Source: Antedon mediterranea (Eukaryota > Animalia > Echinodermata). From it: a stretch of 64,000 bases of DNA. A program made the position numbers and the translations under genes. The notes under the pieces are model-generated. The model was not told where the DNA came from. It did no database searches and saw only the letters and a list, made by a program, of their open reading frames with translations. Of the stretch, positions 1 to 62,169 are shown piece by piece (position 1 is the first letter of the stretch; each line of letters opens with the position of its first letter). The stretch lies in NCBI RefSeq assembly GCF_964355755.1, contig NC_092671.1, forward strand, positions 18,352,001 through 18,416,000, written 5' to 3'.

Positions 1-562
1 TAGCTTAGTTTCAAGGTATTTTTGTTAAATATTTTTCTGAGCTTGTTGCCGGCAGGAAAACAATCTTCTACTATAGCTAAAAACTTGTGGCCGATGTTGG
101 TTGCTACGTTTTTGCTGAATGGTGGGTTAAACCAAATTATGTTTCTGGTGCGTGATTTTTTGGGCTTCTGCTGTTCAGCATTGAACTCAAGTTGATGATT
201 GTATCCACTTTCTTTGAGGGCTTCCTGGTATAGGGGTGCAGATGCATGAAATGTATCTTTGTCTGATGAGATGCCAGAAAGGCGTCTATTTATAGCAAGT
301 GGGATGTTTCGGATAATAGATGGAGGATGGTTGCTGTCATGGTGCACGTAGGTTGGTTTGTTATTAGGCTTAGTGAAAGGTTGGAAGATCCCTGTCCTTA
401 GGTCGAACGTTACATCCAAATAATTGACTATTTTCTTGTTAGCTTCAATTGTTAGCTTGAGGTTGTTCTCCTGGAAAATTTTACAAATATCTTTCTTGAT
501 TAGCTCAATCGTTTTGGCTGATTCGCGAAACGCGGCTAGGCCATCGTCGCGGTATAGACCAA
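1..562 (-). mobile_element. Inverted, 5'-truncated second copy of the Penelope-like element (continues off window)
   Basis: 1-562 is the reverse complement of about 1024-1584 with no differences noticed; joined head-to-head to the + copy at about 561-562. Confidence 0.92.
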
Positions 563-2123
563 CCCGACATGTAGATTAATCAACCCATCGAAATCAGAAA
601 TCGGCATCGTAAGTAAACAAATCCTTGAAAGAATAAATAAGAAAATAATAGCGTCTACAGGATTAAATCAATGGAAGAACACTAATTCTGTTATCGAATG
701 GTATAAGAACATTCAAAACAAGGATAAGCACTCGTTTATTTGCTTCGACATAGTTGACTTCTACCCGTCAATAACCAGTGACCTACTTAAAAAAGCCCTT
801 GAATTCGCCTCCAAGTTTGAAGCAATCTCCGATGAAGAAACAAATATTATTATCCAAGCAAAAAAGTCACTCCTTTTCCATGATAACGCTACATGGTGCA
901 AAAAAGGAACTGAAAACCAACCTGTGTTTGACGTCACAATGGGAAGCTTTGATGGTGCTGAAACCTGTGAAATCGTAGGTACATATCTTTTGTCGCAACT
1001 GTCTAACAAATATGGCAACCAAATTGGTCTATACCGCGACGATGGCCTAGCCGCGTTTCGCGAATCAGCCAAAACGATTGAGCTAATCAAGAAAGATATT
1101 TGTAAAATTTTCCAGGAGAACAACCTCAAGCTAACAATTGAAGCTAACAAGAAAATAGTCAATTATTTGGATGTAACGTTCGACCTAAGGACAGGGATCT
1201 TCCAACCTTTCACTAAGCCTAATAACAAACCAACCTACGTGCACCATGACAGCAACCATCCTCCATCTATTATCCGAAACATCCCACTTGCTATAAATAG
1301 ACGCCTTTCTGGCATCTCATCAGACAAAGATACATTTCATGCATCTGCACCCCTATACCAGGAAGCCCTCAAAGAAAGTGGATACAATCATCAACTTGAG
1401 TTCAATGCTGAACAGCAGAAGCCCAAAAAATCACGCACCAGAAACATAATTTGGTTTAACCCACCATTCAGCAAAAACGTAGCAACCAACATCGGCCACA
1501 AGTTTTTAGCTATAGTAGAAGATTGTTTTCCTGCCGGCAACAAGCTCAGAAAAATATTTAACAAAAATACCTTGAAACTAAGCTATAGTTGCATGCCCAG
1601 CGTAGACAAAGTAATTAACGCACACAACAAATATGTGATAGCCAAAGAAAAGCCTACTGAAACCAACGCGAAAACAAGCGGATGTAACTGCCGCAATCCC
1701 AATGAATGCCCGCTCCCAGGTAACTGCCTAACAAAAGGTGTAGTTTACCAAGCTACAGTAAAGAGAGAAGATTCATCAAAAGAAGAAACATATGTCGGAC
1801 TAACTGAAAACCAGTTTAAAACTAGATACAGAAACCATACGTCTTCATTCCGGAACGAAAAATTAAGAAGTGCAACGGAACTCAGTAAATATATATGGAC
1901 ACTTAAAGACTCTAAAACAAATTACTCAATTAAATGGAAAATTATAAAGAAATGCAAACCTTACTCAAATATTAACAAAAGATGTAATTTATGTATATAT
2001 GAAAAGTATGTTATTATATGTCAACCAGAGCTATGCTCACTGAACCGTAAGAACGAGTTAGTCTCTACTTGTAGACATAGGAAAAAATTCTTACTAAATT
2101 GCAGATCCAAACAGTTTATCTAA
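561..2123 (+). CDS. Penelope-like RT-endonuclease ORF (N-terminally truncated; frame open from 561, upstream of the listed 924 start)
   Basis: Manual translation 561-923 ([15 protein letters not shown]...NQPV) is stop-free and in frame with ORF 924-2123. Confidence 0.85.
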
Positions 2124-2207
2124 AACAATAGGCTATTGTATACGACTTCCCGATGACTCACTTCTATTAAGCACTATGAGACAACTGTGTCACTTATGTT
2201 TTATATT

Positions 2208-2263
2208 TCACCTGAAGAGTGCAGCCAGCTACATGCTGGTCGTACGAAACAAATTTGTAGTGA
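2208..2263 (+). ncRNA. Type I hammerhead ribozyme in Penelope 3' UTR
   Basis: TCAC-CTGAAGA-(GTGC..GCCAGC TACAT GCTGGT..GTAC)-GAAA-CAAATTTG-TA-GTGA: full core, stems I-III, palindromic stem III, GUA cleavage triplet. Confidence 0.88.
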
Positions 2264-2303
2264 TTAAAACAATGAAGTAACCAAGTTTTCTGCTGTTATT
2301 TTA

Positions 2304-2364
<61 letters not shown>

Positions 2365-2472
2365 CATACTGTAAATTATAGAAACAGTGCTCATATTCGG
2401 AACATGATCTCATAATCGCGTCGAGCATAGCTCATTGGCGAAAGTTCCATATTTTTTAGTTGTATGAAAAAA

Positions 2473-2544
2473 TGTCTCTGGCTGGATTCGAACCTGCAAC
2501 CTCTCGCTTACAGGGCGAGTATCATACCACTAGACCACAGAGCC
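2473..2544 (-). tRNA. tRNA-like (pseudo) core, tRNA-Pro-like body with TGT anticodon
   Basis: 72-nt cloverleaf, A box TGGTCTAGTGG, B box GGTTCGAATCC, followed by T6; mismatches in acceptor and T stems, C at position 33. Confidence 0.65.
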
Positions 2545-2862
2545 ATGTTCGAATCCAGCCAGAGACATTTTTTCATACAACTAAAAAATATGGAAATTTC
2601 GCCAATGAGCTATGCTCGACGCGATTATGAGATCATGTTCCGAATATGAGCACTGTTTCTATAATTTACAGTATGATTTATATATAATTTACACAGTGCT
2701 ACGCAACATCATTGATTTACATATACACAATATTATTTAAAAAACCGTTGCGAATTAAAGTTGGAATTTATTCTGACTTGTTAAGCCTCCACTGATTGTG
2801 AGGGCGTTTGTTGTATGAGAGAATGTATCTGGTGGGTGAAAATCTGTGATAATACCATACAT

Positions 2863-2934
2863 GGCTCTGTGGTCTAGGGGTATGATACTCGCCCTGTAAG
2901 CGAGAAGTTGCAGGTTCGAATCCAGCCAGAGACA
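2863..2934 (+). tRNA. tRNA-like (pseudo) core, TGT anticodon
   Basis: Same 72-nt cloverleaf; anticodon arm CTCGC-CCTGTAA-GCGAG; T6 terminator directly after. Confidence 0.65.
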
Positions 2935-3229
2935 TTTTTTCATACAACTAAAAAATATGGAACTTTCGCCAATGAGCTATGCTCGACGCGATTATGAGAT
3001 CATGTTCCGAATATGAGCACTGTTTCTATAATTTACAGTATGATTTATATATAATTTACACAGTGCTACGCAACATCATTGATTTACATATACACAATAT
3101 TATTTAAAAAACCGTTGCGAATTAAAGTTGGAATTTATTCTGACTTGTTAAGCCTCCACTGATTGTGAGGGCGTTTGTTGTATGAGAGAATGTATCTGGT
3201 GGGTGAAAATCTGTGATAATACCATACAT

Positions 3230-3301
3230 GGCTCTGTGGTCTAGGGGTATGATACTCGCCCTGTAAGCGAGAAGTTGCAGGTTCGAATCCAGCCAGAGAC
3301 A
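3230..3301 (+). tRNA. tRNA-like (pseudo) core, TGT anticodon
   Basis: Copy 2 of the array core. Confidence 0.65.
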
Positions 3302-3596
3302 TTTTTTCATACAACTAAAAAATATGGAACTTTCGCCAATGAGCTATGCTCGACGCGATTATGAGATCATGTTCCGAATATGAGCACTGTTTCTATAATT
3401 TACAGTATGATTTATATATAATTTACACAGTGCTACGCAACATCATTGATTTACATATACACAATATTATTTAAAAAACCGTTGCGAATTAAAGTTGGAA
3501 TTTATTCTGACTTGTTAAGCCTCCACTGATTGCGAGGGCGTTTGTTGTATGAGAGAATGTATCTGGTGGGTGAAAATCTGTGATAATACCATACAT

Positions 3597-3668
3597 GGCT
3601 CTGTGGTCTAGTGGTATGATACTCGCCCTGTAAGCGAGAGGTTGCAGGTTCGAATCCAGCCAGAGACA
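3597..3668 (+). tRNA. tRNA-like (pseudo) core, TGT anticodon
   Basis: Copy 3 of the array core. Confidence 0.65.
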
Positions 3669-3963
3669 TTTTTTCATACAACTAAAAAATATGGAACTTT
3701 CGCCAATGAGCTATGCTCGACGCGATTATGAGATCATGTTCCGAATATGAGCACTGTTTCTATAATTTACAGTATGATTTATATATAATTTACACAGTGC
3801 TACGCAACATCATTGATTTACATATACACAATATTATTTAAAAAACCGTTGCGAATTAAAGTTGGAATTTATTCTGACTTGTTAAGCCTCCACTGATTGT
3901 GAGGGCGTTTGTTGTATGAGAGAATGTATCTGGTGGGTGAAAATCTGTGATAATACCATACAT

Positions 3964-4035
3964 GGCTCTGTGGTCTAGTGGTATGATACTTGCCCTGTAA
4001 GCGAGAGGTTGCAGGTTCGAATCCAGCCAGAGACA
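3964..4035 (+). tRNA. tRNA-like (pseudo) core, TGT anticodon
   Basis: Copy 4 of the array core. Confidence 0.65.
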
Positions 4036-4182
4036 TTTTTTCATACAACTAACAAATATGGAACTTTCGCCAATGAGCTATGCTCGACGCGATTATGAGA
4101 TCATGTTCCGAATATGAGCACTGTTTCTATAATTTACAGTATGATTTATATATAATTTACACAGTGCTACGCAACATCATTG

Positions 4183-4240
<58 letters not shown>

Positions 4241-4302
4241 AAATCAGGCAAAGAACATATATATCATAATATTATATATAATAATATACAATGCCAACAT
4301 AC

Positions 4303-4483: not shown

Positions 4484-7400
4484 CTGTATAAATCAATCAA
4501 TATTTTTCCAAAATGGTGGCGTCACCAATAAATCAAATGCTTGTGTAAGTGAAGCCAATACAAAACAGAAACAAGTAAAAAAAAACCATATATATATATA
4601 TAAATCCAGAGACACACACAAAAAGTGAAAAGTTAAATCAAAACGATAAAGTAAAACAACCAGAAAAGTTAGCAGAGTTTCGGGCAACACTAGCCCTTCA
4701 ATAACTTGTATGTATGATAAGGAAATAACTGGAAGCTCAAATTCATCAGTAGAAGAGTTATGTATACATTTTTCAAATAATGAATAATAGAATATTTCAC
4801 GAGTTGAAAAATTAGTATATTTAACGAGGCGAAGCAGAGTTAAGTAGAGCACTCAATCTTTCATAAAATAAGATATTCATTTCATTCATATCGTCTTAAC
4901 ATAAGTAACATAAAATTATATTATACAATAATAAAAAAAACATTAACTTTTCAAAGTATGAATAATTACCTAATCAAATTACAGGAATATTATCAGGTGT
5001 GTTATAAAAATATATGAATTGTTTATGCTTTATATGCAGGCTCTCTGTGCACTGTACATAAACTGAAGGAAAGAGGAAACTGTCAAGTCTTCAGTTGGGT
5101 CTTAAAAAGGTTAATTAAATGTATCACATTTTTATACATTTCGAATGTTACAATAAAGATTACAATAATTACTGAATATATATAAAACAGAAGTGTATCA
5201 AGATAAAATGTTCTTTTGTAATATACCAAAATATAATATCATACCGCAAACTTGTCATTATTGATATCGGATCCCTCGACTAGATTGTTAAAATCACATT
5301 GTCCGCCGTTTACGCAGCCACACAGATACACTTCCATTGTGATGCTGACGCTTTGTGCGCCATCACTGACTTCAATCGTGATGTTTACATTATCAACAGT
5401 AGTTGGTGTCCAGGTAAACAATCCAGCTGGTTAAACAACAACAAATAGATTATAAATTTAAAATAAAAAGTGTTGATCCCTCAAAACATTAACAAATAAA
5501 TATGTATAAAATCAAACATTAAATAGGATATTTTGAAGTTTTGATCAAGTTATTCACTTACTTCATTTCATTTCTTTATTCAAATTTAAAAAAAAATAAC
5601 ATTATAAAACAGTACAGGAATGAATTCAGGGTAGCGCAAAAAAGTAACCAATGGTCAACTTATTTCCATTGTGGCCTTACGCAAAAAAAAAAAATCTGTT
5701 ACAATAGACAAAATTCCATCAAAAACCTGTTGTCTGGTTCTTTAAATTATGATTTGTCAGGTAAATAATTCGTAAATTATTATATTTCAAAAGTTAGAAA
5801 GCCATCAAATTAAGCTTAAGTTTTTAAGCATGCGGCACCAATTTCACTGATAATATACAACCTACATTCTAGTATAAAAAGGGCTTTAGATATAAAAGCA
5901 GATGATATTATTACATATTATAGATAGAAGTATATATAAGCATAATTATATACAAGTATATACAGTATAAGTATATAAGTATATACAAGTATATATAAGT
6001 ATATAAAAGTATATTTAAGAAACTATTATATATATATATATATATAAATCCAAAGGCAAATTACTGAAAAAATGACAATGCTGTGGGTATCAGTGGCTGG
6101 ATCTCAATAGAGATACAACATAAAAGCGAAAAGCTAAATCAAAACGAGAAGTAAAACAGCCAGAAAAGTTATATATATATATATATTACTTGAGTTATCA
6201 ATCTGAATTTCAGGGTATTCCATTTGTGTTGAGTACGTCAAAATATCATCCTTTTCATCACTTGCCGAAACCTGTAGTCGCACCGTTCGGTTTAATAATA
6301 CATACAGCTTGGTATTGTTCTGTAAAACTGAATAACTGCTCATGTCGTCGACAGAATTTAATACTGGTGGTATATTTTCTGAATAAAATAAAATCATACA
6401 TAATCATCATCATACTGTACATTTTCACCAATATCACTTTTATTCATCATCATCATAAAAAATATATGTATTAATCAACATTATTTTGACTATTTAAATA
6501 TTACATAAGGTAAGTTTGTTTATATACATGTAATGGTAAAGATATAAACATTTAAATTCAAGTTTAGAAATGACTTCACATAAATAATAGTAAAAACGTA
6601 CATACATAGTAAATAAATTTATTATTTGTTCTTATTTATTATTCTTAAATTTTTAAAGTTTAAGATTGTTTGATTTGAGAAAGTAGTTGAACGTCATGAC
6701 GATTTTATCATGTTTTATTGTTATTACAAGCTTTAAAAAATATAATTTATATGGTAAAATATTCTAAATGTTTGAAACTTTGAAAACAAAAAGTCACCCA
6801 AAACAGGAAAAAATATATATATTATACCTAATGTGGTTTGATCCTGTAGATTGGTTTCTTCAGTATTTCTAGTGCTCATACCAATTGCAAGATTTTGCGT
6901 TGCTAAGGCATCAAACAAACATTCCTTATTGCCCTCACACGTGTCTTCTGCTTGTTGCAGAAAGGCAGGGTCTGCGTTAGATTGTAAAACATCTAAAAAC
7001 ACTGGTTGAAAATCAGGATCATTGAAATCTGCAAAACTTTGTCCATCCGGATAAACAAATGCGGATTCGTCTTCTGTTATATTCCCTAGGAAAACATTCA
7101 CATTTATTAACTTTAAATTAATGATGTATTGACAACACAAACATGAACAATAAACGTTGTAGTATTTATAAAATCATTAACTTTAAATAAATGGTGGTTT
7201 CGTCTCGGTATTAGTCTCAAGATCATTAATATTTTGAACCATGCTTCTCAGCACAGTCAATATTTGTATATTATATTGAGGCAATATAAAGTAAAAGAAA
7301 GACAACAAAAACGTTGTTGTTAATCACAGGTTATTAATGTACAGTAAACTTACAAGTTATGGCGTAATCAAATATCTCTGACTCTGTCAAATTTCTGTTG

Positions 7401-10400: not shown

Positions 10401-13400
10401 CCTTGTTGTAAGTTACACTCACACCTCCAAAAACAGTGGCGTGAATCACAGAAGCAAAACGAAAATATCAATCTGTCCGTGATGCATATGGCATTGGAGC
10501 AGACTGCTTACATTATTTAATTTACTTATTTTTTCTTATTCCTTTCTTTAATGATTTAAAGTTTAAAAAAAACTATCACAATAGACCCATATTTTGTGCC
10601 AAACACCGGTGTCTGTAGAATGAAACCTTATGATTTTAACTTTTTTAGTCAGTTTCTGTATAGTAAAAACATTTTCCTCTGGTTGGAAAAGAGTCCAATC
10701 GGCATCATCTATATATACATTTACGTAAGGGCAAAATTCGGTAAATCGCGCCTTACTTCTAGAATTTTTACTCGATGGTATATAAAGTTGGTTCGTACTT
10801 TCGGTACTGATTTTAACCACCTAACGTAACCCTGTTTACTAATTAAATTAGATATTGACGATTAAAACGAATTTAGGTTCAACGATTTGCCCCAAATCGG
10901 GGTGTTTTCCGATCGTGGTATACACTGTCTAATGGATGTCCATCTTGAAAAATACCCGCCACAAAAATGCGAGGAGGCTTCGCATTTTCCTATCTCCTCC
11001 TACGATAATTGATTTTAATAGCTGAAAACCGATTGAACAGCTAGAGTACAGTATCATAATGTTGAAGACAGGCCGATTTTCTTTAAAAAATACTATTTTG
11101 ATAGATTTAATATACGTTTATACAAATGTATTGATTTGCGATGAATGGAACATTCCAATCTCTGTTCCACAAGCGTCTATTCCCTCAGGCGTCGTAAAGG
11201 CAAGTACTGTATACTCATAACAGAAATTCGATCCATTTTTTTTTTTCAATCTGTGCTGCAGAGGTTGGACATAAATTTTTTTTTAACGGATAATGTGCTG
11301 GCGTTTTCACTCGCCGTATATTATGTATACATCTTTATTATTGCAGTTAAACCACCCACATATCACCCTTCCCTAACTGGCATGAGTAGCGTTGTAAAGC
11401 CACAGTAGAGCCTGATAGGCCTACTGTGCATCATATGCCCTAAACGCAAAACAACTTTGGTGGGTAGGGTAGGAAACAAACTTAAGTATGACTTGGCTCT
11501 AAGAAACAATTGAAAACCATTAGGCCTACTATTTAAGTTGAGTTAGATAATTTAATATTTATTACCGATTAAATCGAATTTATGATTTTCCCCGAACAGA
11601 GGTGGTTTTCACAAATTGTTTTACATTATATAAACATACACGTCGTAGTGATGTATCGTTATACATGTACTGCTATTTCAATCTACTAGGACGGTGATAC
11701 CGATAGTTTCAACAAAGTATTACATCACAATGTTTTACTGTGTTTAGTGGTATATTATTTGTAAAACATGAAAACAATTAATATTTTGTTACTAAATGGA
11801 TAAAGAATATATTTAAAAATTGTTCCTCTTTGCACCCATCCTCTTCCCCATCCCTCAATCCTAATGTTACATACAAAACACAAATTAAGTTTGTTTAAAT
11901 TTGACTTAAACAATTGGTCTCATTTTTTGACAAGTTTCTCTTTCGGAAGTAATTCCCAGGGTGCTAATTTTAGTTGAGTACATAAGTCAGTGTCTATTTA
12001 TTCGTTCCTGTGTAAACGACATGTATTATTGTACGTACATTTGAAATCTACGGAAGCGTTAAAGTGCCATTCACTTGGCGACTTGTCGAGATAATTTATC
12101 TTATCAAGTCGACATAAATATGACTATTATGTCGACATAGTAACCATTATATGTCTACATTGCGAGATAGTTTATCTTGCCAAGTTGATTCCCTAATAAA
12201 TACATGTCGACTAGACGAGATAGATCAACTTGCCAAGTTGACTTTACTTCGACGCTTGAAGCGTCCGAGTGCCATCCACTTACCGACTTGTCGAGATAAT
12301 TTATCTTGTCAAGTCGACATAAATATGGCTATTATGTCGACATAATAATCATTATATGTCGTCATGGCGAGATACATTATCTTGCCAAGTTGACTTCACC
12401 AAAATTGCATGTCGACATGACAAGTAGTGTTGATATTCTATACAAAATGTCCACATGTGTCTATTTTAACGCATACTAACGACATGTGAGGCCGACGACG
12501 ACCGGCCGAATAGGCAAGTCCAAATAATTTAGAATTACCAAGATAAATATCATCGAATTCCGTCTGTGGATGGCACTTGGACGCTTCAAGTGTCGAAGTA
12601 AAGTCAACTTGGCAAGTTAATCTCTCGTCTAGTCGACATGTATTTATTAGGGAATCAACTTGACAAGATAAACTATCTCGCAATGTAGACATATAATGGT
12701 TATTATGTCGACATAATAGTCATATTTGTGTCGACTTGACAAGATAAATTATCTCGACAAGTCGCCAAGTGAATGGCACTTTAACGCTTCCGTAGAAATC
12801 GTCAGTTTTTTAACGCTGAAATTATTATGTATTCGAGAACCATCTGTGGGCACGACCTAGATGGTAAAAGCGAGCGTACCATCTAGTAACATACAATTGA
12901 TGAAGTCTCGCTGACAGCTTGACGAAACTGTCTTGACACGTAAGTTAATTTACTGGTTTACAATTATTGAAATATATTTTAAAGTTTATGTATTTTTAAT
13001 CGGAATTGCTGTCAACCTTTCTTTGTATTTTTACAAAGAGACAAATAAAGTTTCTTGTATATAGTTTTCATTTTTACAATTTTCAAAGGTTGTGACGTTA
13101 AATTAAAAATGTAGGAAAAAGTGTCTTTAAATAACCATAACCCCCTAGAGAAAATCTATTGTAATGTCTTACCTACATGATCGAGGTACTGATTTACCAA
13201 AAAGAATCTTCCAAATGTGTAACCGTAGCGGAATGCATAGCTTGTAAACCCAAGTCCTTGATAACCTTCTATCAGGGAAAATCCATTCAACCTATAACAA
13301 CATTCAGTCCCAGACAGGTCACGGTTGAAAGTTGAGCTTTGTAGACAGATATAACTACCCAATGCTGAAATAAAATAAATTATAATTGAAATACAAGAAG

Positions 13401-16400
13401 AAATTCTAATGCACCTACTGTTCAACTCTTAAAACAAATTTGTTTCTGCTTCATTCTCCTATTTATTTTTAAATTTGTTTGTTGTTTGTTTCTGTTCTGT
13501 ACATAGTTTATTAATTCATTTTACCTACATGTCATTGTAGACAAAAAATCAATGTGAAATGATAATATAATCAAGATGCATTATTAACTACTGCAGTAAC
13601 TACTGTACATTTTATTATAAACTCTTCTTTGTTTTAGTGGTAAATCATATGTTTATTGTAGCGTATTGTAACAATGAAACCAACTAAAATCATCCGGTAT
13701 TATTGCAGAAAAATTGTAGTTACTGCAGTAACTGCAGTAGAATAATGTTTCTTCAGGTTGATAAAATCTGTGGGTATGACACTAAACTTATTTCATGACA
13801 TTTCAGTTTCTTGGTACATATTGTTGTGATTGTATAGTATAGTATACTATAACTCTACAGGGGGTAATAATACACAGTAGTATAATAGTAAACATCTTAC
13901 CATTATTTAGAAGAGCCACAACAAGTGAAAACAATCCAGAAGAGATTCCTCTGTTTCCCAATAGGGTGTTTATATTTGTTCCTCTACCATGGCCAGAAGG
14001 ATTCAGTGATATTTGAGAAACAAATCGATATCTGCCATCTAACGCGGCCAGTAGAAGCCCACAGGGACACGTTCCTTGATTTCCGGGGTAAACATAGTTT
14101 GACGCCTTATCCTCTTCATACCAGGTTATACAACGCTTCCTTGGGTTTACAGTGTCATCTGTATTTGCTTCTAATCGGACAGCATATTGGCCCTTTCTTC
14201 CAGTATTTCCATTGACCTCATCAGGTCTATAAGGATTGCTGGAAAGAGGAGCCTGTGTTTGGAAGTCAACGGTTTCAAAGGAAGGAATGTTGTAGCCAAT
14301 TGTAGCATCAGCAGGTGTCTCTAGTGCTCTGTCCCATCTCATCTGTCTCTCTTCAAAGAAGAACATGGCAAAACTATATTGACCATCGGTCAAAAGAATA
14401 GCCTGGAAGGTATTTCGCTATAAAAAGAAATGATGCAACAAAATGATATATTATATACTAATAAGATAATCAACACCATATATGACACAATTTATATGTC
14501 TCAAAGTGCTCAAAATCAAAGTTTGGACCGATAATACCATTGGCGAAGACCCAATTTACTCTTACAAGTCAATTCCAGGACATACAAATTATAATCTGGC
14601 CACAGACCAACCAGGTAACATTCAGAATATAAAAAAAATATCAAAACTAGAAGAATTAATACTTACATGATCATTACTGGTACTAACTGGTCTTTGAGGT
14701 ATGTCTACCCATGTGACTTTTAATACCCAGGTTGGAGAAAAGCTTGATGGGACAACACCTTGATACAGATCTATTAGTCTTTGCTTTACAGTGTCAATAA
14801 AAGTCATCTCTTCTGTCGTGTCAGTTGTGTATTCCTGTTGATAATGAAGGCAACAACACGTCATTAATCCATAATATAAATAGGTAGTTTTCATATTGCG
14901 ATGACCAGGATGCAACGCAAGGACGTAAGCGCAATGGAGGAAATTTGACCAATCACAAAGAATAAATTATTCGAACTGTTGCTTGGCCATTGATAAGATG
15001 TTTTTCCATTACAGTGACATACTGTTTTTAACTACTGTAACTACTTTACTCTTTCTCTGAAAGTGGTGGACATATATAAATAAGAAATAATCATCATACC
15101 CGAAAGAAAACATTTCCAATATCACTACTCAGGTCTCCATCTGTCCAAAAAACAGAAATTATGTTTCGCAGGTCAAAACTTTGAAACTGAGTAGATGAGG
15201 GTCTTGGATAACTCATCTTTTCCTCGTCATCATTTACTAGCACAAATATTCCATTTTCTGTGAACTGAAAATTGGTATTGTATAATATTTAGGTAATGTT
15301 TAAAGGATAGAAAAGTGAGTTCAATCCTATTCAAGACAAACATAATACAGAAGCTGCTCTACGTAAAATAAGTGTTATTACAAAAATGGAGTGGAGTGGA
15401 GTTGTTTTTAAAAACGTATCTGCTTTATTTGTGTAATATAACATCCACAAAAAAAGTTGCTAAATAATTGCTTCACATGTTAAAGAGAATAAATGTGGTT
15501 ATTGCAGTGACTGCAGTATGATAATGTTGACATGTTCCTTTAGTTCTATCTTAAACTTACATAAACAATCGGTAGGAAATTATGTCCATAAGGAAAGCCA
15601 AACTGAGGATCAAAATTTCTGGACACTAATTCTCCCAGTGGTCCTACGGAGAGCAATTCTTCATCACCATTTTCGATCCCACTTGGATAGTATAGAATTT
15701 CTAAAGAAAAAATATGTATTGATGAGTACAGTCGCTGCAATACCATTGTACTCGCTGTAATACCATTGTGCTCGCTGCAATACCATTGTGCTCGCTGCAA
15801 TACCATTGTGCTCGCTGCAATACCATTGTGATCGCCGCAATATCATTGTACTCGCTGCAATTCCATTGTGATCGCCGCAATACCATTGTGATCGCCGCAA
15901 TGTCATTGTCCTCACAGCAATACCATTGTGATCGCTTCAATATCATTGTGCTCGCTGCAATATCATTGTGCTCGCTGCAATATCATTGTGATCGCCGCAA
16001 TATCATTGTGCTTGCCGCAATATCATTGTGCTTGCCGCAATATCATTGTGCTCACCGCAATATCATTGTGCTCACCGCAACATCATTGCGTTCGCAGCAA
16101 TATCATTGCCCTCACCGCAATATCATTGTGCTCGCCTCAATATCATTGTGCTCACAACAATTTCATTGTGCTTGCCGCAATCTCATTGTGTTCGCTGCAA
16201 TAGCATTGTGCTCGCTGCAATATCATTGTGCTCGCCGCATCATGTACATAAATTGTACATAAATCATGTACATAAATTGTACATAAATCATGTACATAAA
16301 TTGTACATAAATCATGTACATAAATCATGTACATAAATTGTAATAAGGTAATAGAATACTTGCCTGCACAAAAAGTTCCATCACCCTCATATCCGTCGTT

Positions 16401-33531: not shown

Positions 33532-33754
33532 AATGTAAAGTTAATATGTTCGTACACTATCACATAGTAAAATAAACGCACTTCATCCGATTAACTGTTT
33601 AAGGCAAGTCAGGTTTTGCATCGATGATGCTATGTCAAATTGATAATAAAAGAGAAATTACAATATAGACGTTTTGTTGAACCTTGATCAACCCTTTCGA
33701 AACCCTGTGTTAATCCGTAATCCGATGTCGCGCTTCAATTATTCATAAAAAAAA

Positions 33755-33833
33755 ACAACAATCGCTTTTTTCAAAACTTACCTTGTCTTAATACCATAAA
33801 CAGTAAAGGAGTTTAATAAATCTTCCTAAAATG
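33755..33833 (-). pseudogene. Partial duplicate of the signal-peptide exon and its donor site
   Basis: Near copy of about 33436-33517 with a 1-bp deletion and no original ATG; ends at a TA tract. Confidence 0.75.
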
Positions 33834-33880
33834 AGATATATATTATATATATATATTATATTATATATATTTATATATAT

Positions 33881-34092
33881 ATACGTTAAGTCTGGAAAAG
33901 AAGTAAAAACTACAGTTTGGTCTCTACAGGCTTGTTTCGTGAATGCTAATTTTACAAGAAGTAAATGTGCTTATAAGCAGCGTTGTAATTGATTCTTCTC
34001 ATTATAGTCTCCTGATGAGTGAGTTGCACGACTCACAAAACAAGCCTGTAGAGACCAAACTGTTTTTACTTCTTTTCCAGACTTAACGTATA
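33881..34092. mobile_element. Head-to-head pair of Penelope-type 3' ends carrying a hammerhead (core at 34007-34055, GAAA mutated to AAAA)
   Basis: GTCTC-CTGATGA-GTGAGT..ACTCAC-AAAA-CAAGCCTG-TA-GAGAC; the inverted partial copy at 33881-33945 retains GAAA; TA flanks. Confidence 0.78.
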
Positions 34093-34148
34093 TTTTAGCT
34101 CTACTTTACCGTATTGAGCACTTTCTAGACGGTTACATTGAACCGAAC

Positions 34149-34209
<61 letters not shown>

Positions 34210-34336
34210 TACAAAGCACGCTCGTTGAGCTTGCTGTGCACCCTTTGTGTTCATAATCAGTGTACATGTCCCGCATACCTGGCTCAGCCTATATTGTTGT
34301 GCCAGTTCTGCGGTACATATCATTTCAAAACATGAG

Positions 34337-34381
34337 CTGCACTGACGAGATCTAATAAGATCGAAACAGTACTGTCTGCAG
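34337..34381 (+). ncRNA. Type I hammerhead ribozyme
   Basis: CTGCA-CTGACGA-GATCT AATA AGATC-GAAA-CAGTACTG-TC-TGCAG; perfect core, GUC site. Confidence 0.92.
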
Positions 34382-34621
34382 ATTGGATATTACGATCCTC
34401 TACTTTCTGTTATATACATATGTAGTATGTTGTTTTGTAGAGCACTCTTTAGTTCGAAACGGTGCATTTTTGTTGTGAATACTATTAGCATTTTGCAAAG
34501 CACGCCCGTTGAGCTTGTGCACTCTTTGTGTTCATAACAGTGTACGGTACCATGTCCCGCATACCTGGCTCAGCCTATATATTGTGCCAGTTCTGCGGTA
34601 CATTTCATTTCGAAACCTGAG

Positions 34622-34666
34622 CTGCACTGACGAGATCTAATAAGATCGAAACAGTACTGTCTGCAG
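34622..34666 (+). ncRNA. Type I hammerhead ribozyme (second copy)
   Basis: Identical to 34337-34381. Confidence 0.92.
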
Positions 34667-34669
34667 ATT

Positions 34670-34739
<70 letters not shown>

Positions 34740-41133: not shown

Positions 41134-41206
41134 GTTCTCGGGTGGGACTCGAACCCACGACCTCCAGATCACTAGCCAGGCGTTCATACCTCTAGACCAC
41201 GGAGCT
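41134..41206 (-). tRNA. Degenerate tRNA-like core (AGT anticodon) of a solo element
   Basis: A box TGGTCTAGAGG, perfect T arm GTGGG-TTCGAGT-CCCAC, weak acceptor stem, T6 shortly downstream. Confidence 0.55.
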
Positions 41207-42729: not shown

Positions 42730-43340
42730 GGTCCTATAAACCCCAAAACGGAAACAAAAGGGACTCAGAATGTTGCAAATACCTACCAAACAAGAATAGA
42801 TAATTGTTAATTAATTATGAAAACCCAAATTTTATAGCAAAAATCGTCCGAATTTATGTTAAAAACGATCATAATTTAGCAACAAAAACTGACACCAAAC
42901 GAGCGTATTTATGGCACACCAGTGCCTTTAATAGGAGAACAATGAACAATCTTACTTTGATCGTTTTACATAATATAATTTTTTAGAAAAAAATCACATC
43001 GACAGAAAACAAAGGTTATCAGAGCCTTTGATAATATATTAAATATGATTTTATTAAGAAATGTGTTATTATTTATGTTAGTACATAAATATACGAAATA
43101 ATGTTCAATACTCATTGTTCTATTAAAGGCACTATGTTCGTGCGATATTCTATGACTTTGATTATACTCTCGTTTGATTTAAGTTTTAGTTGCTAAACTC
43201 ATGGTTTTTAACATAAATTCGGACGATTTGTGCTATAAAACTTGGGTTTTCATAATTAATTAACAATTATCTACTCTCGTTTGGTAGGTATTGCAACATT
43301 CCGAGTCTCGTTTTTGTTTGCGTTTGGTGTTTATAGGACC
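42730..43340. mobile_element. Foldback MITE with about 160-bp TIRs
   Basis: GGTCCTATAAAC...GTTTATAGGACC; long inverted arms. Confidence 0.75.
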
Positions 43341-53720: not shown

Positions 53721-54120
53721 TGTATAAATTATTATTGAAAACAAAAAAGAAACGTAACGCAACATAAGTAACGCACGAGAAGATAAGCAAACAAATATAA
53801 CCACGAGACATAAAACTAGACACAGGAGTAAGAAAATCATTTTTAATATTTTTGGTTTTTTTTATATTCGTATTTTAAAATAATGTATATAATCTGTATA
53901 TAAATGAATTATATGTCAAAAAATACTACCGAAAATAACTATACAACATTAGTAAATGTATCTCCTACAGTACATTTATTAGTTAAGTGTTCACAATTTT
54001 AGATGTTGAGAATTATAGAACAAAAAAAAAATACTAGAAAATTATGAAAAAAGGTGGATAACAGAAAAGAAATATTAATGTTCTGATTCCAAGAACAGTA
54101 ACGTTGATAAAAATAAAAAA

Positions 54121-55082: not shown

Positions 55083-57180
55083 TATATATATATATTTATA
55101 TATATACAGGTATATATATAAACACAGTAGGCAAAGAACATTAATTCTGAACCGCCCGGTGATATACTGAAATTTAATTAATTAATTTGAAACGATAAAG
55201 ATGAGGAAATCTGTGAGAATGAGAAAAAGTCGCCCCAACCGAGACCCGAACTCGGACCGCCTGCTTGATATGCAGTTGCCCTAACCATTAGACCACTGGT
55301 CTAACCACATGGTATTGTTCAAACTCGATTGTATAGCGACTCTTTAACACTCTCGGCGTGGTACGGCGGAACAGCAATAGTCCTCAGTTGTACACACGCG
55401 CAACAGAGATCAAATTGATACGCCCTCATCTTACAGTATTTTTATTCACGAGGCGGGATCTCCGAAGAGATACTTTTATATATATAACCACAGTAGGCAA
55501 AGAACATTAATTCTGAACCGCCGGTGATATACTGAAATTTAATTAATTAATTTGAAACGATAAAGATGAGGAAATCTGTGAGAATGAGAAAAAGTCGCCC
55601 CAACCGAGACTCGAACTCGGACCGCCTGCTTGATATGCAGTTGCTCTAACCATTAGACCACTGGGGCTTTCATGGTATTGTTCAATCTCGATTGTATAGC
55701 GACTCTTTAACACTCTCGGCGTGGTACGGCGGAACAGCACTAGTCCTCAGTTGTACACACGCGCAACAGAGATCAAATTGATACGCCCTCATCTTACAGT
55801 ATTTTTATTCACGAGGCGGGATCTCCGAAGAGATACTTTTATATATATAAACACAGTAGGCAAAGAACATTAATTCTGAACCGCCCGGTGATATATTGAA
55901 ATTTAATTAATTAATTTGAAACGATAAAGATGAGGAAATCTGTGAGAATGAGAAAAAGTCGCTCCAACCGAGACTCGAACTCGGACCGCCTGCTTGATAT
56001 GCAGTTGCCCTAACCATTAGACGACTGGGGCTTTCATGGTATTGTTCAAACTCGATTGTATAGCGACTCTTTAACACTCTCGGCGTGGTACGGCGGAACA
56101 GCACTAGACCTCAGTTGTACACACGCGCAACAGAGATCAAATTGATACGCCCTCATCTTACAGTATTTTTATTCACAAGGCGGGATCTCCGAAGAGATAC
56201 TTTTATATATATAAACACAGTAGGCAAAGAAAATTAATTCTGAACCACCCGGTGATATACTGAAATTTAATTAATTAATTTGAAACGATAAAGATGAGGA
56301 AATTTGTGAGAATGAGAAAAAGTCGCCCCAACCGAGACTCGAACTCGGACCGCCTGCTTGATATGCAGTTGCCCTAACCATTAGACCACTGGGGCTTTCA
56401 TGGTATTGTTCAAACTCGATTGTATAGCGACTCTTTAACACTCTCGGCGTGGTACGGCGGAACAGCACTAGACCTCAGTTGTACACACGCGCAACAGAGA
56501 TCAAATTGATACGCCCTCATCTTACAGTATTTTTATTCACAAGGCGGGATCTCCGAAGAGATACTTTTATATATATAAACACAGTAGGCAAAGAAAATTA
56601 ATTCTGAACCACCCGGTGATATACTGAAATTTAATTAATTAATTTGAAACGATAAAGATGAGGAAATTTGTGAGAATGAGAAAAAGTCGCCCCAACCGAG
56701 ACTCGAACTCGGACCGCCTGCTTGATATGCAGTTGCCCTAACCATTAGACCACTGGGGCTTTCATGGTATTGTTCAAACTCGATTGTATAGCGACTCTTT
56801 AACACTCTCGGCGTGGTACGACGGAACAGCACTAGTCCTCAGTTGTACACACGCGCAACAGAGATCAAATTGATACGCCCTCATCTTACAGTATTTTTAT
56901 TCACGAGGCGGGATCTCCGAAGAGATACTTTTATATATATAACCACAGTAGGCAAAGAACATTAATTCTGAACCGCCGGTGATATACTGAAATTTAATTA
57001 ATTAATTTGAAACGATAAAGATGAGGAAATCTGTGAGAATGAGAAAAAGTCGCCCCAACCGAGACTCGAACTCGGACCGCCTGCTAATCTAAATACAATC
57101 GAGTTTGAACAATACCATGAAAGCCCTAGTGGTCTAATTGTTAGGGCAACTGTCTCGGTTGGGGCGACTTTTTCTCATTC

Positions 57181-60100
57181 AGGGAAATAGCGTTTGTGAC
57201 TATTTACTTGCGCCGTACGAAGAATTCAACAATATTTCCTTGTTGATAGACTAAAGTGTGGAGTCTTATCACATGCCGGTCAACTTTGAAATTAAAATTG
57301 AAAATACTGAATATAATAATCTTTATAATAATAGTAATGAAAATGATAATTTTAAAACGCTAAATAAATATCAATGGAAAGAAAACTATAAAGACACATT
57401 TAGGGCACGTTGGGAACATGAAACAGTCGAGAAGTTAGACAACAGTTTCATGAGCGCAATAATTCAAAACAAAATCGACGAGGCTGTAACATGTCTTCAA
57501 AAAACTTTTGAATACACTTGTAGCGGAATATCTAAAGTATTTACACATTTTACCGCTAATACCACTATTCAAAATGTTAAGAAAACAAATAACTGGTTTG
57601 ATCGCGAATGCCTTACTTTAAAAAAAGATTTAAAAAAGAATTGAATAAAGCTTTAGCTTTAAGAAATAACGATCAACAGAATTCATTTAATAATTATATC
57701 AAACTTAAAAAGGAATACAAAAAACAATAAGACAAAAGAAATATAACCATCAAAAACAAAAACGTGACGAAATCTTAATAGCAGCCAGTAATAGGAGCTC
57801 AAAACAATTTTGGTCAAAATTAAAAACTCATAAACAAACAATAACTTCTGAAATAACAATTAACGAATGGCGAGATCATTTCCAATCACTGTTTGAACCC
57901 CCCGAGCCAGTTAACAAAGTTACAGACGAAATAGTACATAACATTGTTAACGAAAACGATAACCTCAATTCAGAAATTGACTTGGGTGAAATCAAACAAG
58001 CATTGAAAATGCAGAAATCAGGAAAATCTCCTGGTATGGATGGTATGTTTTTAGAATATATCTTAAATGCACCCAATTTATTATTTGATAATCTAAAACT
58101 TATTTTTAATTCAATTTTTCAGTTTGGCCAATTCCCAACACAATGGGCGACGAGCATGATAATTCCTATTTACAAAAAGGGCAAAAAGAATAAGCCAGAA
58201 AATTACAGAGGCATTGCTCTTATTCCGATACTTGGCAAAATGTTGTTACACATCCTTAAATCAAGATTAGACCACTTCACTGAAAATAACAACATTATTT
58301 ATCAAGAGCAAGCAGGTTTTCGTAAGGGTTTTTGCACATTCGACAATATTTTATTTTAAATAGTATCATTGCAAAATATTTAAGTAAAAAACGAGGTAGG
58401 GTATTCTGCTGTTTCATTGATCTCAAGCGTGCCTTCGATAGTATAAATCATAGTTTTCTTTTACTTAAATTAAAACGAATAGGTGTAAATGGTAATATGT
58501 ACAATATAATTCAGTCTATGTATAACAATTTGTCTGCACATGTAAAAATTGGTAACAAAGTGACATTTCCATTTGACTGTTCTATTGGAATACAACAAGG
58601 TTCACCTTTATCCTCTTTACTTTTCAACATATTTATGAATGATTTAAGTTATGATCTAAATCAGAGTAGAGATAGAGACAAAATACAAGTTGAAGACAGC
58701 TTTATCAATCATTTATTATACGCTGATGATTTAGTATTATTTGGAGATACGGTAAGGGGCTTACAAATTTTAATAAATAAACTCGAAATTTTTTGTGACA
58801 CATGGGGTCTCAGTGTAAACATAAATAAATAAAAAATAATGGTATTTAAAAAGGGTGGGAAACTAAAATATTTTGAAAAATGGTATTACAGGAATATTCA
58901 AATGGAGGTTGTTACGACTTATAATTATTTAGGAGTGGAATTTAGTTCAAATGGCCAGTGGAACAAAGCACTTGAATATAATTGTCAAAAAGCAAACAAC
59001 GCGTTATTTTCCGTTAAATCTTTTATTAGTCGAAATATGAAATATTTACCAGAAAATACATGGAATTATATTTTTGACACAAAAATATTACCAATTTTAA
59101 TTTACGGCAGTGAAATATGGGGGTTTTCTAACCAAATAATTATTAATAATTTCCACACGCGTTTTGCGAGGTTTATTTTGAACATTGGAAAAAGTGCCCC
59201 TAGCGCAGCCGTAACTACAGAATTAGGCAGAGTTTCCTTGCATGTCGATTGTTTAATTTCAATTATTCGTTTTTGGTTGCATATTATTGACATGGATAAA
59301 AATAGATTTATTTTTAAATGTTACAGTTTTCAGTTAAGAAAAATTAACATAAATGAATATTGCTGGGCTAGTCAGGTAAAACATTTACTTTGTTCAACCG
59401 GCTTTGGTTATGTTTGGTACAAACAAAATTGCATCTTCACAAATTTCTCAAAGTCTTGCCTTTTTGTTTAACTGGTCATTAAGATCTGGTGTTATTCCAA
59501 GTGAATGGAAATGTGCTAAGGTTACTCCGCTTTATAAAGGAGGATGTAAACATGAACTTAACAACTACCGTCCAATATCTGTTATACCTATTGCTATGAA
59601 AGTTTTTGAAAGATGCATCCATAATCAAGTTATGAATCATATAAATGAGTTTAATTTATTATGTAAAAATCAATCTGGTTTTAGGTCGTTACATTCAACT
59701 TCTACTACACTGATAGATGTATGCAATTATATATATAAAAATATTGATAATGGCTTGGTAACTGGAGCAATTTTTCTTGACCTAAAAAAGGCGTTTGATA
59801 CGGTAGACCACGATATTTTATTACGTAAATTATGCACCTTTGGAATGATAAACACTGAGCTTGCATGGTTCAGTAATTATTTAAAAAATCGCAAACAATT
59901 TGTTAATTTTAATGGAAAAAAATCTGAAATTTTAAATGTCAACTATGGGGTACCACAAGGCTCAATTCTTGGCCCTTTGTTGTTTATTTTATACATAAAT
60001 GACTTACATGATAGTGTTGATGGGATTTGTAAAACAGTCCTCTATGCAGACGACACTGCGCTTTTTTATGCATGTAAATCAAATGAAGAGCTTACAACAG

Positions 60101-61671
60101 TTTTAACTGAACAGTTGGAAAATGTAAAACAATGGTTAGATAAACATAAATTAACTCTAAACATTGATAAAACCAAATACATGCTTTTTGGTACTCATGC
60201 ACGTGTTAATAAAACAACAGATGAAACAGCAATTCCGATTGAGAAAGTTGAAACGTTTAAATATTTGGGACTTACATTTGATGAACAACTCTCATGGAAA
60301 GTACATATTGATTCTATATGTGCAAAACTATCAAAAATTCTACATCTATTTTATAGATTGAAAAGTTTTACATCTCCTAAAATTATTAAAAGATTATACA
60401 ATGCTCTATTTTTATCACATATTGACTATTGTTCAACAGTCTGGGGTACTGGTTCAAACGCCCATATTTTAAAATTGCAAAGGGTACAAAATAGAGCTGC
60501 ACGATTAATACTAGGTGCTGATATTCGAACTCCTGTTAGACAAATGCATTATGATTTAGGTTGGCTAACAATTAAGACAAGAATTGAATATCATACAATT
60601 TGTACAATATTTAGATGTTTACAAGAATCTGTACCTTCATACTTATGTAATGTTTTGCAATATATTAGTAGTGTACACAATATTCAAACCAGAAACTATG
60701 AAAACAATCTGTTGTATTTGCCCAGATGTAACCTCGAAATATACAAACGTAGTTTTGTTTATTATGGAAGTTCACTCTGGAATGGCCTACCTTATGAATT
60801 AAGAAAACAAAACAATTATAACCGTTTTAAATCACTTGTTAAGATTCATTTATTGTTGCCGGTGGTCTAGGATGGTTCCAGTGAAATATATTTAAATATG
60901 GTATAAAAGTATAATAATAATGAGAACATGCATTGAAGTTTAGTTTTAGTTTAAGTTTTAGTTTAAGTTTAGTTTAAGTTGTTTTCAAATTTTGTTTAAA
61001 TGTGCCGTAGGGCCCCTCGGAAGAGCAGTTTTATTTCATTACTGAAAGGGCTACCCTACTAAAAGAAAACGAAATAAATAAATAAATAAATCAAATGATT
61101 GAAGACAAGAAATTATTTATTAAAGAATTTAAATTACGACTGATTGATTTAGAAAAACAAAAATATTTTGAACAATTTTCTTTACATTCAAAACTAAAAT
61201 ATTTTAAGTATTTTAAAACGAAAATTGAAATAAGTTATCATTTGTTACACTTAAAAGATTGGAAACGTAAAAATATATTCACAAAATTTTGTTTAGGAGT
61301 GTTAGATTTGGAAATAGAAAAAGGAAGATGGAACAAAATCCCACTTCAAAACCGTTTATGTAAATTATGCAATATGAATTCTATTGATGACGAATTTCAT
61401 TTTATGTTAGTCTGTCCATATTATTCCGAACTCAGAAACTTATATATTCCTAATTTTTATCACACGTTCCCTTGTTTAAATAAGTTTTATTTTTTAATGT
61501 GCAACACTAGAGTAGTCCAAGATTTAGCAAATTTTGTTTATTTAGCTTACGAAAATAGAAAATATTATTTTGCAACCCAACAAGAAAATATTATTGTATG
61601 ATTTGTATGTAAGATATAAGGGCCAGAGGCCTAAATATTGTGGAAATAAAACCCCGTTAGGGGAACGAACG
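57181..61671 (+). mobile_element. RTE-X-like LINE, 5'-truncated within the APE domain, with stops and frameshifts; split by a nested LINE
   Basis: GNSVCDY..SYHMP, KSPGMDG, NYRGIAL, QAGFRKG, FIDLKRAFDS, QGSPLSSLLF, LLYADD; WYKQ rejoins MIEDK across the insertion; zinc finger; tail AACGAACG. Confidence 0.85.
59428..61091 (+). mobile_element. L2/Crack-like (CR1 group) LINE nested in the RTE-X element; RT frame intact to 60870
   Basis: NYRPISV, QSGFR, FLDLKKAFDTVDH, GVPQGSILGPLLF, YADD; 3' stem GTAGGG...CCCTAC and (AAAT)n; CAAA on both sides. Confidence 0.88.
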
Positions 61672-62006
61672 ATATCAAGCAGGCGGTCCGAGTTCGAGTC
61701 TCGGTTGGGGCGACTTTTTCTCATTCTCACAGATTTCCTCATCTTTATCGTTTCAAATTAATTAATTAAATTTCAGTGTATCACCGGGCGGTTCAGAATT
61801 AATGTTCTTTGCCTACTGTGTTTATATATATATATAAGTATCTCTTCGGAGATCCCGCCTCGTGAATAAAAATACTGTAAGATGAGGGCGTATCAATTTG
61901 ATCTCTGTTGCGCGTGTGTACAACTGAGGACTAGTGCTGTTCCGCCGTACCACGCCGAGAGTGTTAAAGAGTCGCTATACAATCGAGTTTGAACAATACC
62001 ATGAAA

Positions 62007-62078
62007 GCCCCAGTGGTCTAATGGTTAGGGCAACTGCATATCAAGCAGGCAGTCCGAGTTCGAGTCTCGGTTGGGGCG
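62007..62078 (+). tRNA. tRNA-like core (tRNA-Arg-like 5' half, ATC in anticodon position); representative of array 2
   Basis: GCCCCAG/TTGGGGC acceptor, perfect T arm CCGAG-TTCGAGT-CTCGG, then ACTTTTT; atypical anticodon loop ATATCAA. Confidence 0.65.
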
Positions 62079-62120
62079 ACTTTTTCTCATTCTCACAGAT
62101 TTCCTCATCTTTATCGTTTC

Positions 62121-62169
<49 letters not shown>

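What the first reader, a model, noticed from the sequence alone, without database searches (positions are those of the whole stretch)
1..4236. Same head-to-head, 3'-ends-out geometry in four insertions; array 1 has an optional 39-bp tail
The Penelope element (junction about 562), array 1 (junction 2547-2548, GT microhomology), the hammerhead pair at 33881-34092 and array 2 (junction 57085-57093, short filler) each consist of two 5'-truncated arms joined head-to-head, with the visible 3' ends in TA. In array 1 the inverted arm ends at TATGATTT|ATAT while the direct arm ends about 39 bp further at CATTGATTT|ATAT, resembling the optional short tail described for Penelope pseudo-LTRs. This is the main mechanistic link between the tRNA arrays and Penelope RT.
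Basis: partly seen in the sequence, partly recalled or inferred. Interest (0 to 1): 0.7.

Follow-up and report, generated by a model that had tools for sequence, protein, structure and literature searches.

The report
tRNA arrays bearing Penelope insertion scars
Two abundant non-coding tandem repeats that each carry a tRNA look-alike sit in TA microsatellites with the same head-to-head layout and one-sided 3' extension as Penelope-type jumping genes, so they are likely ribozyme-free passengers copied by a Penelope-type reverse transcriptase.

Summary
The geometry is real. Array 1 matches the description exactly: GT microhomology at 2547-2548, and two 3' ends 39 bp apart. The element at 1-2313 fits the Hydra clade of Penelope-like elements (PLEs), and head-to-head arms plus a one-sided tail are the published PLE signature, so that part is ordinary. 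The arrays are less ordinary. In all 3 insertions with both ends visible, the short arm has the short end and the long arm carries the extension (39, 64, 67 nt). Public-run contigs show the array-1 family dispersed, using both ends, with an independent head-to-head junction in two studies. In both unrelated units the ~50 nt before each tRNA can pair with its 3' half and T-run, with G-U bias (9 vs 1), which points to selection on a rod-like RNA. Caveats: no sequence ties the arrays to either PLE in the window; array 1's ends coincide with its only two TA-like words; 6 of 10 such pieces show no inverted arm; the window's own junctions were not recovered in reads. I found no such element in print (9 searches). 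This scan noted the same kind in at least 5 other genomes.

The parts
1..562 (-). Inverted, 5'-truncated arm of the Hydra-clade PLE; runs off the window
   Evidence: 562 of 562 identical to the reverse complement of 1024-1585
563..2313 (+). Direct arm of the Hydra-clade PLE: 5'-truncated RT + GIY-YIG ORF (to 2123), 3' pLTR with a minimal hammerhead (core from 2212, predicted cut after 2259), ends in TA
   Evidence: ORF; CxCx5C, YRDD and CxxC..CxH motifs; homologs of about 700 aa; hammerhead pattern
2314..2361 (.). (TA)n run shared by the PLE 3' end and the array-1 inverted arm
2362..2548 (-). Array 1 inverted arm: short 3' end, no tail; 5' end 2-4 nt upstream of tRNA +1
2547..4186 (+). Array 1 direct arm, 4.5 x 367 bp; tRNA-like modules at 2863, 3230, 3597 and 3964, each followed by T6; starts in the T-arm; GT microhomology at 2547-2548
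4148..4186 (+). 39-bp extension ('tail') present only on the long arm of array 1
   Evidence: both ends also seen in other copies
3908..3959 (+). Segment upstream of the next tRNA, predicted to pair with the tRNA 3' half and T-run (one example; present in every full unit)
4187..4237 (.). (TA)n run at the long 3' end of array 1
4238..4258 (-). Stub of the array-2 family's long 3' end, facing the same TA run
   Evidence: 26 of 29 aligned columns identical, 8 of them TA run
33884..33942 (-). Hammerhead pair, left arm (short end, intact GAAA, lacks the CUGAUGA half)
33947..34155 (+). Hammerhead pair, right arm (5' limit approximate; GAAA core mutated) with a probable 67-nt extension to the TA run at 34156
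34207..34671 (+). Retrozyme-like 284-bp hammerhead dimer with TA on both sides and no inverted arm (counter-example)
   Evidence: Rfam Hammerhead_HH9 matches below gathering score
54079..55081 (+). 3' fragment of a Neptune-type PLE (CxxxCxxC linker, GIY-YIG) with a hammerhead pLTR, ending in the TA run shared with array 2
55121..57085 (-). Array 2 long arm, 5.4 x 364 bp, long 3' end in TA; tRNA-like module followed by T5
57086..57092 (.). 7-bp filler at the array-2 inversion junction
57093..57180 (+). Start of the array-2 opposite arm, with a 28-bp deletion inside the tRNA module
57181..61655 (+). Nested LINE-type sequence interrupting the opposite arm
   Evidence: RVT_1 hits
61656..62126 (+). 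Rest of the array-2 opposite arm, ending at the short 3' end (64 nt before the long one) in TA

Best explanation
The 367-bp and 364-bp tRNA-bearing tandem repeats share the TA target, head-to-head arms and one-sided 3' extension of Penelope-like elements, and are likely non-autonomous retroelements copied in trans by a PLE reverse transcriptase/endonuclease. Shown: the geometry, two alternative 3' ends, dispersed copies biased to the 3' end, and no recognisable hammerhead. Inferred mechanism: the enzyme, probably as a dimer, nicks both strands of a (TA)n run. Each nick primes cDNA at one of two internal sites of the RNA; in array 1 these are the unit's two TA-like words. The two cDNAs stop at different points, anneal through 2-nt microhomology or a short filler and copy each other. 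This gives 3' ends out, 5' ends joined, and a tail on one arm only. The template is inferred to be a multimeric or terminally redundant RNA from a donor array, begun at the tRNA-type A/B-box promoter or read through from a flank. It is predicted to fold into a rod that masks the tRNA 3' half and the U-run from tRNA processing. Which PLE clade supplies the enzyme is unknown.
For: Geometry exact for array 1. In 3 of 3 insertions with both ends visible, the short arm has the short end and the long arm the extension, as described for PLEs (PMC3846280, PMC8557442 passages). PAc protein cuts and extends both strands and starts at two internal sites (PMC11167929); the array-1 unit is covered in 4 of 4 runs. 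Among the 24 loose ends shown (204 not shown), 4 rows lie at or just before the short end (3034 or 3053; 11, 4, 13 and 1 contigs) and 2 rows lie at the long end followed by TA (3092; 2 and 4 contigs). One independent head-to-head junction (2816/2964) appears in runs X2 and X5, from two studies; orientation read from table 8, record 9; 5 of the 32 listed pieces are 93-100-nt array-2 3' stubs inside longer unrelated contigs, as expected of 5' truncation. Sense-strand fold z = -5.7 vs -3.8 antisense. The long-range duplex is -45.4 kcal/mol sense in both families vs -31.0 and -29.5 antisense, with 9 G-U vs 1 A-C oppositions (p = 0.02). TA-targeting Hydra- and Neptune-type PLEs share TA runs with both arrays.
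Against: No significant 3' similarity between either array and either PLE (best p = 0.13 among the 4 array-PLE pairs of 15 tests), although the 5' part of each PLE is missing from the window. For 5 other PLE-type or tandem pieces no inverted arm was found. Only 2 of 8 listed joints and 1 of 15 listed change strand; the latter's orientation is unresolved and may reflect the unit's own complementarity. The window's own junctions were not among the listed joints. A T6 or T5 run directly behind each tRNA should stop Pol III before the priming region (established knowledge). Array 1's ends have target homology, unlike PAc in vitro. The extensions of 64 and 67 nt exceed the published 30-40 bp. The 3 of 3 tail pattern is a small sample and relies on reading across the LINE (array 2) and on an inferred end (hammerhead pair).
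Confidence: 0.72

Rival explanations
1. The arrays are tRNA- or SINE-derived satellites that spread and invert at the DNA level, by template switching or microhomology repair at fragile (TA)n runs, using the TA-like words inside the unit as landing homology. The Penelope resemblance is convergent.
For: Both array-1 ends and the long end of array 2 fall on the units' only TA-like words (9 of 367 and 8 of 364 positions). Units share variants as after local duplication or conversion: u1/u2, the identical pair mA/mB, and non-adjacent m0/mD. SINE-derived satellites are described (PMC10702118, abstract).
Against: Array 2's short end has no TA seed. Dispersed 3' stubs and 3'-biased cover point to reverse transcription. 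The strand-specific G-U pattern points to an RNA stage. A tail on one arm only is not predicted.
Confidence: 0.13
2. They are tRNA-headed SINEs moved by an ordinary LINE, with inversions from twin priming and arrays from later recombination.
For: A- and B-box-like sequences are intact, and LINEs are abundant in the window. Tandem and palindromic tRNA-SINE structures occur in bivalves (PMC11481361 passages). Twin priming also joins 5' ends with 3' ends out (recalled). The only resolved independent junction (2816/2964) shows non-overlapping pieces in its contig.
Against: No poly(A) or short-repeat tail. The 3' ends lie inside the unit, which continues into the next copy. The window's two arms overlap and both start from the 3' region, which twin priming on one monomer does not give. 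The terminator sits directly behind the tRNA.
Confidence: 0.1
3. The inversions are assembly or library fold-back artefacts.
For: The Penelope arms are 100% identical, and the window's own junctions were not recovered from the runs laid. No long reads were available.
Against: The arms are asymmetric. The array-1 inverted arm lacks the tail and has a different flank from the direct arm. The arms of the hammerhead pair and of array 2 have diverged. A like junction stands in two independent studies.
Confidence: 0.03

Closest known systems
Penelope-like elements, Hydra clade (Craig et al. 2021, PMC8557442) - for the element at 1-2313
   Same: C-terminal GIY-YIG, CxCX5C linker, CxxC and CxH motifs, hammerhead, (TA)n target, inverted 5'-truncated copy
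   Different: Nothing found; the N-terminal motifs are truncated in this copy
Animal non-LTR retrozymes (PMC7229834; bioRxiv 10.64898/2026.07.22.740005)
   Same: Tandem 150-400-nt non-coding units, self-paired RNA, proposed PLE mobilisation, co-occurrence with PLEs. Plant retrozyme and viroid circles block their ribozyme with a complementary segment, as the tRNA is predicted to be blocked here.
   Different: No hammerhead found in the units, a tRNA-like module instead, no pLTR homology. The preprint's main text has no mention of tRNA. Circular RNA was not tested here.
Schistosome Sm-alpha / Sj-alpha SINE-like repeats (PMC6765202, passages)
   Same: Pol III-type promoter inside a tandem mobile unit
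   Different: Those carry a hammerhead that cuts multimers; the passages read do not report PLE-type inversions or tails
Non-autonomous Chlamys PLEs such as MRC1 (PMC8557442)
   Same: Non-coding, multicopy head-to-tail insertions attributed to a PLE
   Different: Those generally resemble the autonomous family at the 3' end; no such similarity here, and no tRNA module is mentioned for them
SINE-derived satellites and tandem or palindromic tRNA-SINEs (PMC10702118; PMC11481361)
   Same: tRNA-related heads in tandem and inverted arrangements
   Different: Those have LINE partners and arrays ascribed to recombination; here two internal 3' ends and a TA target

Membership tests
Hydra-clade PLE (element 1-2313) | RT followed by C-terminal GIY-YIG-type endonuclease in one ORF | tested here: met
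   YRDD and a VVYQATV..YVGLT endonuclease core in one frame; full-length homologs of about 700 aa. Pfam gave no hit on this ORF.
Hydra-clade PLE (element 1-2313) | CxCX5C linker; CxxC and CxH motifs around the conserved E and N | tested here: met
   CNCRNPNEC and CNLC..CRH; present in 120 and 119 of 120 homologs
Hydra-clade PLE (element 1-2313) | RWK and DKT N-terminal motifs | tested here: inconclusive
   Region truncated in the window; loose patterns found in 72 and 100 of 120 homologs
Hydra-clade PLE (element 1-2313) | Hammerhead in the pLTR and (TA)n target | tested here: met
   Core at 2212 with stems readable by eye, 3' end in a 48-bp TA run; not reported by Rfam
Hydra-clade PLE (element 1-2313) | Phylogenetic placement with named Hydra families | not tested
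   No named reference sequences were at hand
Non-autonomous PLE passenger (arrays) | Inverted 5'-truncated copy joined head-to-head | tested here: met
   Both arrays; one resolved independent case
Non-autonomous PLE passenger (arrays) | 3' extension on one end only | tested here: met
   39 nt in array 1; 64 nt in array 2, read across a LINE. The second is longer than the published 30-40 bp.
Non-autonomous PLE passenger (arrays) | 3' sequence similarity to an autonomous PLE | tested here: not met
   None with the parts of the two PLEs in the window; their 5' regions could not be tested
Non-autonomous PLE passenger (arrays) | RNA is reverse-transcribed by the PLE protein | not testable with these tools
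   Needs an in vitro assay
Non-LTR retrozyme (arrays) | Type I hammerhead in each unit | tested here: not met
   No Rfam ribozyme match at E <= 0.1 and no CUGANGA..GAAA core with stem II in either array; an unknown ribozyme is not excluded
Non-LTR retrozyme (arrays) | Tandem 150-400-nt, highly self-paired unit | tested here: met
   367 and 364 bp; sense z of -5.7 and -3.3 to -3.8
Non-LTR retrozyme (arrays) | Expressed as circular RNA | not testable with these tools
   Only contigs were available, and no run was on record as RNA
tRNA-derived SINE (arrays) | tRNA-related head with A and B boxes | tested here: met
   Rfam tRNA 43.6-52.3 bits for 10 modules
tRNA-derived SINE (arrays) | No Pol III terminator before the 3' end; A-rich or LINE-derived tail; monomeric insertion | tested here: not met
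   T6 or T5 directly behind the tRNA; 3' ends internal to a tandem unit

The most novel reading that the evidence does not exclude
A class of ribozyme-free PLE parasites, arisen repeatedly from tRNA genes. A complementary segment folds the RNA into a rod that masks the tRNA and its U-run, and a dimeric PLE enzyme primes twice on internal TA-like words, once with and once without the tail. Every head-to-head insertion would then record both cDNAs of one integration event and expose the unresolved second-strand step of PLE transposition. It would also mean that many 'tRNA gene arrays' in invertebrate genomes are mobile elements.
Probability: 0.4. Interest if true: 0.78.

Novelty: new variant of a known kind. 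Interest (0 to 1): 0.56.

Why it matters
How PLEs make inverted arms and tails is stated as unresolved in the papers read. Short, abundant, non-coding substrates with two defined start sites would make it testable by counting genomic copies and by an in vitro assay. A hammerhead-free passenger would show that the ribozyme is not needed for tandem PLE-type spread. These repeats also pass ARAGORN and Rfam as tRNA genes (10 calls in this window) and can inflate tRNA annotation.

Tried and rejected
No whole genome is held for this window, so no genome-wide catalogue was possible. Exact-pattern scans for the array-1 unit found 0 matches in metagenome and in genome contigs. PLE locus scans gave 1 short contig-end hit and 0 viral hits. 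No RNA holder was listed. A shared 3' recognition motif was sought and rejected: an 11-nt word common to array 2 and the Neptune pLTR (p = 0.13) and a GAGCAC word common to array 1 and the hammerhead pair (p = 0.07) are not significant among 15 tests. Depletion of T>=4 runs in the spacers is not significant (p = 0.08 to 0.36). A simple rolling circle around one monomer fits poorly, because variants are shared between units, including non-adjacent m0 and mD; later duplication or conversion could also explain this. The array-1 inverted arm ends 2-4 nt upstream of tRNA +1, which suggests run-off at a Pol III start, but no pile-up of ends was reported there (table 6). A 'short end' for the Neptune family (copy at 4603) was rejected as more likely an internal deletion. 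Contig depth profiles were used only qualitatively; the tool masked 55070-55122. tRNA isotype of origin was not tested. Supplements of the papers were not read; the preprint's are closed and could list such families.
Full report
Setting. The window is AT-rich animal DNA, and no whole genome is held for it. The only named homologs of the Penelope protein among the 120 listed are from corals at 57-58% identity, which does not identify the host. ARAGORN tRNA genes, all inside two tandem arrays of 367 and 364 bp.

Observation. Array 1 is exactly as described: an inverted arm identical to unit 3 over 195 bp, GT shared at 2547-2548, and 3' ends 39 bp apart, each running into a TA run. The Penelope arms are identical over 562 bp, but the left end is outside the window. 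Array 2 has the stated junction with a 7-bp filler. Its plus arm is damaged by a 28-bp deletion and nested LINE sequence, and ends, if read across the LINE, 64 nt before the end used by the minus arm. The hammerhead pair is an older or two-template inverted repeat (55 of 59 columns), whose right arm probably continues 67 nt to a TA run. Five other PLE-type or tandem pieces ending in TA show no inverted arm: the hammerhead dimer at 34207, the Neptune-type fragment at 54079, pieces at 4603 and 6047, and a 317-bp dimer at 33432. A sixth, the stub at 4238, was not tested. Inversion is therefore common but not the rule: 4 of 10 pieces.

What the Penelope element is. Its ORF has the CxCX5C linker and the CxxC and CxH motifs, a hammerhead and a TA target. 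These define the Hydra clade in Craig et al. 2021 (PMC8557442, section 11). A second PLE fragment with a CxxxCxxC linker and GIY-YIG hit, Neptune-type by the same paper's motif description, ends in the TA run shared with array 2. An inverted 5'-truncated copy and a 30-40-bp tail on one end are the typical PLE structure (PMC8557442 passages; PMC3846280 passages). In vitro, a Poseidon protein cuts and extends both target strands and starts at two internal RNA sites whose spacing is the tail, without homology to the target (PMC11167929, parts 1-2 of 4). For the PLE itself the finding is thus already known.

Do the arrays behave the same elsewhere? I laid Logan contigs of coded public runs on one array-1 unit (447, 141, 806 and 14 contigs laid). 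The head-to-tail joint is present in 4 of 4 runs. Of 24 loose ends shown (204 not shown), four rows lie at or just before the short end and two at the long end followed by TA; the rest are scattered. Two of 8 listed joints change strand. One (2816/2964) is in two studies and is head-to-head by table 8. The window's own junction is not listed; these runs hold at most 0.61 of the Penelope words and are probably other individuals. For array 2, 5 of 32 listed pieces are about 100-nt 3' stubs in unrelated flanks. Twenty contigs in X7 diverge at 55143, and their consensus reads as a variant long end abutting TA; 4 in X1 stop near the short end without TA. One listed joint of 15 changes strand, with unresolved orientation. 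Summed depth is highest near the 3' ends in both calls, which agrees but is a poor measure. One X7 contig (depth 111) joins array 2 to the start of the Neptune-type hammerhead with a short filler; its orientation is not printed, so it is a lead only.

New anatomy. (i) In 3 of 3 insertions with both ends visible, the shorter arm has the short end and the longer arm the extension. (ii) Array 1's two ends coincide with the only two TA-like words in the unit (9 of 367 positions), so priming there is likely homology-guided, and the 39-bp length is set by the unit. (iii) Each tRNA module is followed at once by T6 or T5, the only T>=4 run of the typical sense unit, and array 1's module has a T-stem mismatch that the common family allele does not repair. 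(iv) In both families, which share no significant sequence, the ~50 nt before each tRNA are an imperfect complement of its 3' half and T-run. The duplex is -45.4 kcal/mol on the sense strand in both, against -31.0 and -29.5 antisense, with 9 G-U against 1 A-C oppositions (p = 0.02). This points to selection on the sense RNA, and recalls the blocked ribozyme of plant retrozyme and viroid circles (PMC7229834 Discussion). (v) Units share variants in adjacent and non-adjacent positions, which a single pass around one monomeric circle would not give.

Mechanism. Most likely (0.72) the arrays are non-autonomous passengers of a TA-targeting PLE. Inferred steps: nicks on both strands of (TA)n, two primings at the two internal sites, annealing of the two truncated cDNAs by microhomology or filler, then mutual copying. 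The template is inferred to be multimeric or terminally redundant. How transcription passes the T-run is unexplained. Against: no homology to either PLE, extensions longer than published, few independent inversions resolved, and no RNA evidence. Rivals are DNA-level satellite spread (0.13), a LINE-driven SINE with twin priming (0.10; twin priming recalled) and artefact (0.03).

Comparison. The arrays work like animal retrozymes, which a 2026 preprint derives from PLE pLTRs (10.64898/2026.07.22.740005: abstract, passages, Discussion; no mention of tRNA). They fail membership: no hammerhead and no pLTR homology. They are not ordinary SINEs either. Schistosome SINE-like repeats combine a Pol III promoter with a hammerhead (PMC6765202 passages). 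SINE satellites (PMC10702118, abstract) and bivalve tandem SINEs (PMC11481361 passages, no mention of Penelope) are ascribed to other routes. Nine literature searches listed no paper on tRNA-bearing, ribozyme-free PLE passengers; most subscription papers, Repbase and supplements were not searchable. This scan's own unchecked notes describe the same kind in at least 5 other genomes; none matches this sequence and a word search for the rod found none.

Verdict. A real feature; textbook for the PLE, and a new variant of a known kind for the arrays. Interest 0.56.

Noticed in passing
window 55285-55310: One array-2 unit junction is changed so that the tRNA 5' end forms a perfect hairpin, as after template-switch correction of a quasi-palindrome.
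   Followed up: no
window 57181-61655: A LINE with a second LINE nested in it sits inside the tRNA module of array 2, and about 55-70 bp of the array is present on both sides; possibly a long target duplication or tRNA targeting.
   Followed up: partly
window 33432-33835: 317-bp partial tandem (1.3 units) ending in TA, with no tRNA, hammerhead or fold signal; a possible further passenger family.
   Followed up: partly
window 6047-6169: Neptune-type pLTR piece between two TA runs, whose 5' end lies a few nt downstream of the predicted hammerhead cut.
   Followed up: no
window 41137-41204: Solitary weak tRNA match (30.1 bits), 72% like the array-1 module and followed by T6; possibly an older relative.
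   Followed up: partly
window 20083-29142: 3019-aa open frame on the minus strand made of a 15-bp repeat (mucin-like), with a NIDO-domain exon at 13806-14417 on the same strand; probably a host gene whose introns hold these elements.
   Followed up: no
run X7 contig laid on window 55299 and 54916: Joint between an array-2 piece and the start of the Neptune-type hammerhead region; a possible array/PLE chimera.
   Followed up: no
window 12047-12796 and 42730-43340: Nested inverted repeats resembling non-autonomous DNA transposons.
   Followed up: no
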